NCBI GenBank assembly: GCA_001724265.1
Contig: MEDY01000065.1
Location: forward strand, 1-64,000
DNA length: 64,000 nucleotides
Direction: 5' to 3'
From: Rhizaria sp. SCN 62-66
Taxonomy: Eukaryota
A program made the position numbers and the translations under genes. Below are positions 7,743 to 9,628 of this stretch, piece after piece; the stretch's first letter is position 1; each line of letters begins with the position of its first letter. The notes below the pieces were generated by a model that was not told the origin of the DNA, made no database searches, and saw only the letters and a program-made list of their open reading frames with translations.

Positions 7743-9628
7743 ATGTCGAGCGAGATCGCGGATGTTGCCCCCATGGCCACATCCACTCCGGCTGCGGCCG
7801 TTGTTGCGGCTCCTGCCGCGACTGCTGCCCCTGCCAGTGCGTCTGCGACCGTTACGCTCACTCCGGCTGAGCTCGAGGCGAAGTTTCCTATCTTCGATCT
7901 GAGCCCTGAGAAGCCGAACCGGCCGACGGACTACTTGCTTCTTGCCGTCAACAAACCCCCCGCTGACGCGGTGGCTCCCCTTGACGTGCACGGCCGCAAG
8001 CAGACGTCCCCGCCCGAGATCCCGGTGTCGTACTTCTACCCCGACGGCAAGTTCCCCGTTGGCCAGATTCAGGAGTACACGATGGACTCGAACACGTACC
8101 GCACGACCTCTGCCGAGAAGCGCGAGGCGGAGAAGCCCAACGAGGAAATGTACAACAACGCGCGCGAGGCCGCCGAGGCGCACCGCATCGCGCGCCAGGA
8201 CATCATGAAGTACATCCGCCCCGGTGTCTCGCTGTTTGATATCGCGACGCAGCTTGAGACGTCGACGGCACGCCTCATCGGCAAGAACCACTCCGTGCAT
8301 GGCACCAAGCGCGGCTGGGCCTTCCCCACGGGCCTGTCGGTGAACCACATCGCGGCGCACTTCAGCCCCAACGCGGGCGACAAGACGATCCTGGGCGAGA
8401 ACGATGTTCTCAAGGTCGACTTTGGCACCCACGTCAACGGCCGCATCATCGACTGCGCCTTCACGGTGCACTTCAACCACGAGTACGACGGGCTCGTCGA
8501 GGCCGTCAAGGAGGCCACCGAGACGGGCGTCCGCGTCGCCGGCATCGACATGCGCCTCGGCGACATCGGCGGCGTCATTCAGGAGGTACGCATATGTCAT
8601 TCTTTGTCAATGAAATTCGTTTTTCGATCTCTTTATTTTCATAAGGCTTCTTCATAACAGTCCCATCCTGCATTGCCTTCCTCGTTGGAGGGGGCCCATG
8701 TCCGTCTTTTATGGCGTACCTCACTTGCTTGGTGATTCTACAGGAGCCGATAGCAACGTTCCCCACCCGCGGTGGCGCACCGACACGTCTCGTTTTGAGG
8801 CGTGACATCGCGCCATCTGCGTTTACTACGCAGAAGCCGTGGAACTGGGGAGCTCCGGTGTCAGAGGAAGACGGGGCGCGGTGCTCAGTGGCCGCGTTCC
8901 CTTACCCTGGTGCCGGAATATCTCTCATTAACACTCTACTTTCTGTCTTTTGACAACGCTATCATGCCTCCGAATCGACTTTTTCTGAACAAACATCTCA
9001 CTTTTCTTCTTTCTTCGATCTTGCTTTTCTTTCTTTTCCTTTGTCACTCGCACGTATTGGCTGTGATGCAAAACGACTCTGTTCTGTGCGCATCCACTCA
9101 CACACACAGGTGATGGAGTCGTGGGAAACTGAGATCAAGGGCAAGACGTACGATATCAAGTGCATCCGCAACCTGTGCGGGCACTCGATCGACCCCTACA
9201 ACATCCACGCCGGCAAGTCCGTCCCCATCGTCAACAACGGCGACCAGACCAAGATGGAGGAGGGCGAGTTCTACGCCATCGAGACCTTCGGCTCCACCGG
9301 CCGCGGCGGGATCCGCGAGGAGGGCGACGTGTCGCACTACATGCGTAATCGCGACAAGACCATTTCCACGCGCATCCAGGGCCGCGCGCGCCAGCTCTAC
9401 AACGTCATCGACAGCAACTTCACCACGCTGGCCTTCTGCCGCCGCTGGCTGGACCAGCTGGGCGAGAAGAACTACATGCTGCCGATGCGCCAGCTCATGG
9501 ACGCGGACCTGGTGCGGCCATACCCGCCGCTGGTCGAGGCGCGCGGGACCTACACGGCCCAGTTCGAGCACACGATTTTGCTGCGCCCCACGTGCAAGGA
9601 GGTCATCTCGCGCGGCTTCGACTACTAA
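7743..9628 (+). CDS. METAP2: Methionine aminopeptidase 2; exons 7743-8585 and 9110-9628
   Basis: Motifs [53 protein letters not shown] and [22 protein letters not shown]. Intron GTACGC...CACAG joins VIQE|VMES. Stop TAA. Confidence 0.97.
8660..8935 (+). ncRNA. Candidate structured intronic RNA, class unknown
   Basis: GC-rich island inside an otherwise T-rich intron, with nested complementary helices whose G-U pairs favour the sense strand (see findings). Confidence 0.55.

What the first reader, a model, noticed from the sequence alone, without database searches (positions are those of the whole stretch)
8660..8935. About 270-nt three-domain structured RNA hidden in the METAP2 intron
Seen: this intron (524 nt) is the longest coding-region intron here and contains a GC-rich core. 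Domain 1: UCCUG(8666)/CAGGA(8741) closes three small hairpins. Domain 2: GUUCCCCA(8758)/UGGGGAGC(8846) encloses CCGCGGU/GCCGUGG, GGCGC/GCGCC, CACGUCUC/GAGGCGUG and UCUGCGU/ACGCAGA. Domain 3: UCCGGUGUCAG(8854)/CUGGUGCCGGA(8917) plus GGGGCGCGG/CCGCGUUCC around an internal loop. Many G-U pairs point to the sense strand. I could not find U1, U3, SRP, RNase P/MRP, TPP riboswitch or snR30 m1/m2 signatures. An AGAGGA and a downstream ACA make an atypical H/ACA-type RNA possible. Inference: an unclassified intron-encoded ncRNA or a splicing-regulatory structure.
Basis: partly seen in the sequence, partly recalled or inferred. Interest (0 to 1): 0.7.

Follow-up and report, generated by a model that had tools for sequence, protein, structure and literature searches.

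The report
Oversized H/ACA-type snoRNA in METAP2 intron
A folded RNA of about 280 letters sits in an intron of a wastewater protist and is kept in a relative; it most likely is an unusually large box H/ACA guide RNA for ribosome maturation, carrying an extra conserved domain whose job and target are still open.

Summary
The structure is real and under selection. The 524-nt METAP2 intron is spliced. The element folds far better than shuffles on the sense strand only (z -4.76 against -0.55), is single-copy and has no Rfam match. A relative (L006, exon 2 protein 78% identical) carries a homologue in the same intron (37.7 bits, E 2e-9) that keeps domains 2 and 3 through compensatory changes; the downstream intron is not conserved. 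This gives box H/ACA geometry: 5' hairpin with a conserved pocket, H box 15-16 nt away, an inserted 96-nt domain, a 3' hairpin, and AUA in the place of ACA. The target is not established: two rRNA candidates fit, neither beats shuffles (33 of 300; 50 of 500), and the host's rDNA appears to be missing. RNase MRP and U2 lie elsewhere; U17 and telomerase tests failed. Verdict: atypical intronic H/ACA snoRNA, a new variant of a known kind.

The parts
7743..8585 (+). METAP2 exon 1 (host gene)
   Evidence: Open frame of 281 aa; spliced frame gives a 453-aa MetAP2
8586..9109 (+). Host intron, 524 nt, GT..AG
   Evidence: RNA contig of X12 skips exactly 524 nt
9110..9628 (+). METAP2 exon 2
   Evidence: PF00557 relatives; best 73% identical
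8645..8923 (+). Predicted mature RNA, about 280 nt; both ends inferred
   Evidence: Fold of 8644-8923 z -4.35, 0 of 200; homologue L006:1-283; a diverged contig in X4 aligns from 8641; 3' end set 3 nt after AUA by the H/ACA rule (PMC2664660)
8645..8651 (+). 5' hairpin, lower stem, 5' strand (pairs with 8742-8748)
   Evidence: P 0.87-0.99; not testable in L006, whose contig starts at the equivalent of 8658; partner GAGCC is invariant
8652..8663 (+). 5' side of the predicted pseudouridylation pocket (CAGUCC invariant)
8664..8734 (+). Upper stem CAUC(cu)GCA 8664-8672 / UGC(uu)GGUG 8726-8734 enclosing two branch hairpins (8675-8695, 8700-8719)
   Evidence: 7 bp at P >= 0.60 in L006; only P 0.01-0.06 in the window, 2.3 kcal/mol above the best fold; its pairs are invariant, so no covariation
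8735..8741 (+). 3' side of the predicted pocket, AUUCUAC (UUUCCAC in L006)
8750..8755 (+). H box AUAGCA (ANANNA); AAAACA in L006
   Evidence: 15 nt (window) and 16 nt (L006) after the upper stem
8758..8853 (+).
   Evidence: z -6.18; same helices in L006 folded alone; 28 of 28 hand-matched pairs stay paired, 11 changed on both sides
8854..8917 (+).
   Evidence: z -3.59 for 8854-8923; 20 of 21 hand-matched pairs kept, 7 changed on both sides
8918..8920 (+). AUA in the place of the ACA box, inside conserved GGAAUAUYUCU
   Evidence: 17 nt (window) and 16-17 nt (L006) after the upper stem of the 3' hairpin

Best explanation
An intron-encoded box H/ACA snoRNA of atypical build. It is co-transcribed with METAP2, released by splicing and trimmed to about 8645-8923 (inferred from how intronic snoRNAs are made; recalled). 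Two Cbf5/Nop10/Nhp2 modules bind at the H box and at AUA (inferred). The pocket of the 5' hairpin pairs on both sides of a uridine in an RNA reading GGAA-(2 to 3 nt)-(G)GACU and directs its pseudouridylation; candidates are the large-subunit site that is Psi2129 in yeast, or a uridine of 18S expansion segment 6 just 3' of the snR30 site rm1. The 3' hairpin has no conserved pocket and is probably structural. The inserted 96-nt domain is probably a protein-binding platform, as extra helices are in yeast snR37. Shown: splicing, folding, conservation, box motifs and spacings. Inferred: RNP assembly, ends, target, role of the insert.
For: Homologue in the same intron of a relative with ATG8-like synteny; alignment score z 12.0 for the element against z -0.3 (130 of 200 shuffles as good) for the downstream intron; of 66 pairs matched by hand 37 unchanged, 12 changed on one side, 16 on both, 1 broken; a contig of a third, diverged sequence in X4 holds exon end, 8641-8802 and exon 2. 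Lower stem ends 1 nt before an ANANNA that is kept in both species. Pocket-to-box distances 15/16 and 17/16-17 nt against the known 14-16 (PMC7601244). The best conserved unpaired letters are the two pocket sides. AUA replaces ACA in 6 of 28 Tetrahymena H/ACA RNAs (PMC3273799). The layout 5' hairpin - H - internal hairpin - 3' hairpin occurs in snR30 and some other H/ACA RNAs. Dyskerin is in the genome. RNA run X11 has a contig 8655-8832 with adapter letters directly before it, depth 14.3 against 3.4 for an exon contig (weak hint only).
Against: No canonical ACA. ANANNA and AUA are short and can be kept by chance in A-rich linkers. Neither target beats shuffles: 33 of 300, 50 of 500. The large-subunit pairing leaves 1 or 3 target letters unpaired, or unpaired guide letters, rather than the usual two; the 18S pairing is to the Rfam consensus, has a C-A mismatch in L006, and no modified site is listed there for Arabidopsis, yeast or human. 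Conservation runs 5-7 nt past the predicted 3' end. 2 of 3 runs recorded as RNA (X9, X12) gave no contig in the element. Only two full sequences.
Confidence: 0.55

Rival explanations
1. An H/ACA RNP that does not modify: the pocket only docks on pre-rRNA (for example in ES6 beside rm1) and the RNA chaperones folding or processing, as a reshaped counterpart of snR30/U17, or it is a scaRNA for an snRNA not examined.
For: Same layout as snR30. The geometrically best pocket match lies in ES6 directly 3' of rm1. No convincing U17 was found in G000: SNORA73 model 0 matches; the one m1/m2 hit at C239 lacks ACA 7 nt after m2 and has no Rfam support.
Against: No m1/m2 in the 3' hairpin of either species, and the positions 7 nt before AUA lie in a covarying stem. 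C239 may be the true U17. The host U2 gives only a weak, non-canonical match (score 21, 3-nt gap); U1, U4, U5, U6 were not examined.
Confidence: 0.17
2. A stable intronic RNA of a class unrelated to H/ACA; the boxes are coincidence and domain 2 is the functional core, bound by lineage-specific proteins.
For: The longest invariant run (13 nt) and the invariant loop are in domain 2; the tail is conserved beyond AUA; the apical loop GUUYUG can pair with CGGAAU of the tail in both species (one of very many short helices listed there); no Rfam match for either sequence.
Against: It leaves unexplained that stem, pocket, H box and AUA all fall at H/ACA spacings in both species.
Confidence: 0.13
3. 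A cis-acting structure of the METAP2 pre-mRNA that tunes splicing or retention.
For: It stays in the same intron in at least two, probably three, sequences; run X4 has contigs across unspliced exon-intron borders (kind of run not on record).
Against: No overlap with splice sites or the 3' intron end; no riboswitch match; X12 shows plain splicing; X11 has a contig confined to the element. Staying in one intron is normal for snoRNAs.
Confidence: 0.08
4. Telomerase RNA of H/ACA type, with domain 2 as a CR4/5-like junction and CAGUCCCA as template.
For: Single copy; in the window domain 2 has a three-way junction shaped like CR4/5 (recalled); TGGGAC arrays exist in G000 (42 pattern matches, 14 in the control).
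Against: The 14 array loci examined (of 42 overlapping matches) are all inside contigs, and most read as Gln-Ser or similar coding repeats in open frames; no TTAGGG or TAAGGG arrays; the third helix of the junction is not kept in L006; no template/pseudoknot domain upstream of the H/ACA part. The host telomere repeat is unknown, so this is not excluded.
Confidence: 0.05
5. Chance fold or transposon remnant.
For: GC-rich sequence folds easily; domain 1 is not unusually stable.
Against: One copy in G000; structure kept by compensatory change in a relative while the downstream intron is not alignable.
Confidence: 0.02

Closest known systems
Yeast snR37 (bifunctional H/ACA snoRNA; bioRxiv 10.64898/2026.03.20.713187, abstract and sections 9 and 12 read)
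   Same: Longer than usual; guide pocket in the 5' hairpin only; branched 5' hairpin; 3' hairpin without a usable conserved pocket; extra helices that could recruit non-core proteins.
   Different: 280 against 386 nt; the large insert lies between the H box and the 3' hairpin, not inside the hairpins; no complementarity to the U2944 site; intronic; AUA; no Rfam similarity.
snR30/U17 (PMC7601244 and PMC2664660, passages read)
   Same: 5' hairpin - H box - internal hairpin - 3' hairpin; similar size to fission yeast and Tetrahymena U17 (325, about 240 nt); one candidate target lies in ES6.
   Different: No m1/m2; the conserved part is the 5' pocket and the insert, whereas snR30 lacks a 5' pocket and its 3' hairpin is the conserved part.
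Yeast snR3 (guide of 25S Psi2129 and Psi2133; table in PMC5699541, passage read)
   Same: One candidate target is the uridine that matches U2129 by spacing to U2133 and A2142 (C706 13651, +4, +13; mapping partly recalled).
   Different: No sequence similarity (Rfam); pairing geometry is imperfect; the Rfam consensus has C at this place.
Tetrahymena H/ACA snoRNAs with AUA (PMC3273799, passages read)
   Same: AUA in place of ACA in a protist H/ACA RNA.
   Different: Those are ordinary two-hairpin RNAs of about 124-136 nt.
Vertebrate telomerase RNA CR4/5 and H/ACA domain (recalled, no call)
   Same: Shape of the domain-2 junction in the window; H/ACA scaffold.
   Different: Order of domains, no template or pseudoknot domain, third helix not conserved.

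Membership tests
Box H/ACA snoRNA | H box (ANANNA) in a single-stranded hinge directly after the 5' hairpin | tested here: met
   AUAGCA 8750-8755, 1 nt after the lower stem; AAAACA in L006
Box H/ACA snoRNA | ACA box (variants AUA, AGA, AAA known) after the 3' hairpin | tested here: inconclusive
   No conserved ACA; AUA kept in both species; AUA is a documented variant
Box H/ACA snoRNA | Box lies 3 nt from the mature 3' end | not testable with these tools
   Only contigs were available; conservation runs past +3
Box H/ACA snoRNA | Hairpin with lower stem, pocket and upper stem; pocket top 14-16 nt from the box | tested here: met
   5' hairpin 15 and 16 nt; 3' hairpin 17 and 16-17 nt. Caveat: lower stem seen in one species, upper stem weak in the window
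Box H/ACA snoRNA | Bipartite guide pairing around a target uridine | tested here: inconclusive
   33 of 300 and 50 of 500 shuffles reach the two best scores; host rRNA not available
Box H/ACA snoRNA | Binding of Cbf5/dyskerin, Nop10, Nhp2, Gar1 | not testable with these tools
   Only the presence of a dyskerin gene at C142 was shown
snR30/U17 | m1 (AUAUUCCUA) and m2 (AAACCAU) in the 3' hairpin, m2 7 nt before ACA | tested here: not met
   Absent in window and L006; motifs as tabulated in PMC7601244
RNase MRP RNA | Match to RF00030 | tested here: not met
   No match here; the genome's MRP is at C84, 56.2 bits
Telomerase RNA | Template complementary to the telomere repeat | tested here: inconclusive
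   Three candidate repeats tested, none telomeric; host repeat unknown
Telomerase RNA | Conserved pseudoknot and CR4/5 junction with P6.1 | tested here: not met
   Third helix not kept in L006; the helix listing was too permissive to show or exclude a pseudoknot
Box C/D snoRNA, U3 | Boxes C (RUGAUGA) and D (CUGA) | tested here: not met
   No C box; CUGA in L006 reads CUCA in the window; pattern scan of the window finds none here
SRP RNA, RNase P RNA, spliceosomal snRNAs, riboswitches | Match to the Rfam models | tested here: not met
   No match down to E 10 for either sequence. Their genes elsewhere in G000 were not looked for, except U2

The most novel reading that the evidence does not exclude
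A scaffolding snoRNP of a protist lineage without named relatives: its 5' pocket clamps 18S ES6 next to the snR30 site while a conserved 96-nt insert recruits dedicated proteins, so that it takes over or shares the job of snR30/U17 by a different pairing mode, or is an independently evolved snR37-like modifier and scaffold.
Probability: 0.15. Interest if true: 0.75.

Novelty: new variant of a known kind. Interest (0 to 1): 0.45.

Why it matters
An ordinary guide snoRNA in an unstudied protist would be a small addition. What lifts this one is the 96-nt insert kept by compensatory change and with invariant loops, which a plain guide does not need. Dual modifying and scaffolding H/ACA RNAs have been described for yeast snR37, whose authors argue that they may be common; an independent case far from fungi and animals would test that. 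It also gives a seed alignment for an RNA family that Rfam 15 lacks.

Tried and rejected
2) CCCUUACCCU as telomerase template: no TAAGGG or TTAGGG arrays, not conserved. 3) CAGUCCCA as template: arrays are internal, mostly coding repeats. 4) The idea that small-share RNA runs hold mainly this RNA: true for 1 of 3 (X11); X9 and X12 held exon pieces. 5) rDNA of C706 as host rRNA: 39-41% GC, its LSU start differs from the 80-nt LSU copy in GC-rich C143 and its ES6 lacks the usual rm1/rm2; used only as a stand-in for conserved rRNA. 6) Host 18S or LSU elsewhere: the one pattern hit at C30 is not rDNA; none in prokaryote or viral collections. 7) More homologues: only L006 among 80 METAP2 loci; none in viral or prokaryote collections; none among earlier findings. 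8) Model R1 (alifold structure) was poor and not used. 9) The pair table had wrong registers in several helices and was replaced; only its alignment scores and the P values of correctly placed helices are used. 10) (19 pairs with two-sided change, at most 3 in slid controls) is on a model-fitted alignment with one spurious 40-nt row, so it is supporting only. 11) Domain-2 motifs and the tail against rRNA: best shared matches short, no control run. 12) HisRS tree: groups only with unnamed environmental proteins; lineage not named. 13) Literature searches for a description of this RNA or host gene gave nothing relevant; the library lacks most subscription papers. The intronic nematode telomerase RNA is recalled only (0 papers).

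Full report
1. Observation. The host gene is METAP2: exons 7743-8585 and 9110-9628, intron 8586-9109 of 524 nt. An RNA contig of run X12 skips exactly these 524 nt. Rfam gives nothing and G000 holds one copy. The organism is a flagellated protist (CFAP-like WD40 gene) found in bioreactor and wastewater runs; its HisRS groups only with unnamed proteins.

2. Conservation. Of 80 METAP2 loci from metagenomes one, L006 (78% identical protein, ATG8-like gene next door as in the window; that gene name is recalled), has an intron at this place among the 23 loci whose upstream I printed, and it holds a homologue. A covariance model built from the window alone finds it at 37.7 bits, E 2e-9, and nothing else among the 80 loci. 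Alignment scores against 200 shuffles: element z 12.0, downstream intron z -0.3. Folded alone, L006 gives the same helices in domains 2 and 3 (z -3.71; its minus strand also folds well, z -3.23). Of 66 pairs in 11 helices that I matched by hand, 37 are unchanged, 12 changed on one side, 16 on both, 1 broken; registers of the two lower stems were set by their ends, so the two-sided count is approximate. Run X4 holds a contig of a third, diverged sequence that aligns to the end of exon 1, to 8641-8802 (five small indels) and to exon 2; its letters were not available.

3. Corrected anatomy. This fits the start of similarity at 8641 in X4 and explains the invariant GAGCC. L006 cannot test it, since its contig begins at the equivalent of 8658. 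One base after this stem stands AUAGCA, an H box; L006 has AAAACA. An upper stem CAUC(cu)GCA/UGC(uu)GGUG is the main fold in L006 (P at least 0.60) but minor in the window (P 0.01-0.06, 2.3 kcal/mol above the best fold). Between the two stems lie the best conserved unpaired letters, CAGUCC and WUUCYAC: a pocket whose top is 15 and 16 nt from the H box. Then follow, without a linker, domain 2 (8758-8853) and the 3' hairpin (8854-8917), then AUA, 17 and 16-17 nt from the upper stem of that hairpin. The loop of the 3' hairpin is not conserved. Known values are 14-16 nt (PMC7601244, passages; PMC2664660, passages), and AUA is a known variant (PMC3273799, passages). A dyskerin gene is present.

4. 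Expression. Of three runs on record as RNA, X11 has a contig 8655-8832 with adapter letters directly before 8655 and depth 14.3 against 3.4 for an exon contig; X9 and X12 have none in the element. Contigs cannot show ends or levels, so this is a weak hint. A start 10 nt inside the predicted 5' end is compatible with cDNA fragments (inference).

5. Target. The only rDNA in G000 (C706) is probably from another organism (see Tried and rejected), so it served as a stand-in. A two-species scan of 9,144 nt ranks first GGAAUC-U-GACUGUU at C706 13651; 33 of 300 shuffles score as high. By spacing this U matches yeast Psi2129, guided by snR3 (PMC5699541, passage; mapping partly recalled); geometry is imperfect, the Rfam consensus has C there, and the Arabidopsis table lists only the 2133 site (PMC8351944 supplement 2, searched). 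The Rfam 18S consensus reads UAGAA-UA-GGACU just 3' of rm1: 5+5 Watson-Crick pairs around UA with canonical geometry, but 50 of 500 shuffles reach this score, L006 has one mismatch unless its 18S has G there, and no pseudouridine is listed at that place (supplement 3, read whole). Host U2 gives no good match. The target is therefore open.

6. Mechanism. Most likely (0.55) an intron-processed H/ACA snoRNA whose 5' pocket guides one pseudouridine, whose 3' hairpin is structural, and whose insert binds further proteins. Adding the non-modifying H/ACA reading (0.17), the H/ACA class stands at about 0.7. Rivals: unrelated ncRNA class 0.13, cis element 0.08, telomerase RNA 0.05, chance 0.02. Unexplained under the best reading: the 13 invariant letters and the GUUYU loop of domain 2, the invariant CAUGUCCGU in the 5' hairpin, and tail conservation past AUA.

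7. Comparison. It works most like snR37 (guide in a branched 5' hairpin, inactive 3' hairpin, extra helices; preprint abstract and sections 9, 12 read) and is laid out like snR30/U17, but fails the U17 test (no m1/m2). It is not RNase MRP (found at C84). U17 itself is uncertain in G000: no SNORA73 match, one m1/m2 hairpin at C239 without ACA at the right distance (several chance hits are expected for such a pattern, the control gave 0). PMC5824354 was seen as passages only and PMC12095548 as a search listing only. Searches for a description of this RNA found none.

8. Verdict. A real, conserved, so far uncatalogued intronic RNA; best filed as a new variant of box H/ACA snoRNA with unresolved target. 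Interest 0.45. Most novel reading not excluded: a scaffolding snoRNP that docks on ES6 or works like snR37, probability 0.15, interest 0.75 if true.

Noticed in passing
window 25909-25991 (-): Box C/D snoRNA candidate: C box AUGAUGA, 13-nt perfect antisense to conserved LSU CUAGAGGUGUCAG (L003 7472), D'-like UUGA, D box CUGA; looks like a guide for the yeast Gm2791 region (snR48; numbering recalled). No Rfam match at gathering score.
   Followed up: partly
G000:C706 (L002, L003): Complete rDNA unit, 39-41% GC, with 9 group I intron matches and open frames that look like homing endonucleases; primer-site features recall Heterolobosea (from memory). Its LSU start differs from the LSU piece in C143, so it probably belongs to another organism in the assembly.
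   Followed up: partly
G000:C143:3156-3235 (L004): Isolated 80-nt copy of the LSU 5' region (86 bits) in a GC-rich contig; perhaps the only trace of the host's own rDNA.
   Followed up: partly
G000:C239:5207-5243 (-) (L088): Exact U17/snR30 m1 and m2 motifs with an upstream hairpin, a possible H box and a small internal hairpin, but no ACA 7 nt after m2 and no Rfam match.
   Followed up: partly
G000:C84:63577-63929 (+); G000:C407:18314-18508 (-): RNase MRP RNA (56.2 bits) and U2 snRNA (95.6 bits); U2 keeps GUAGUA but has changed letters around it.
   Followed up: no
window 49152-52779 (+): Histidyl-tRNA synthetase with an N-terminal aromatic-amino-acid-lyase-like domain, a fusion shared with many of its listed relatives.
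   Followed up: partly
window 8792-8797 and 8914-8919: The conserved apical loop GUUYUG of domain 2 can pair with the conserved CGGAAU at the base of the 3' hairpin in both species; the 3' side of the 5' pocket can pair with the same GGAAU. Short, untested against chance.
   Followed up: no
L006:1: The relative's contig begins exactly at the conserved CAGUCCCAUC, within 3 nt of where the X11 RNA contig begins; may be chance or reflect a coverage step at this place.
   Followed up: no
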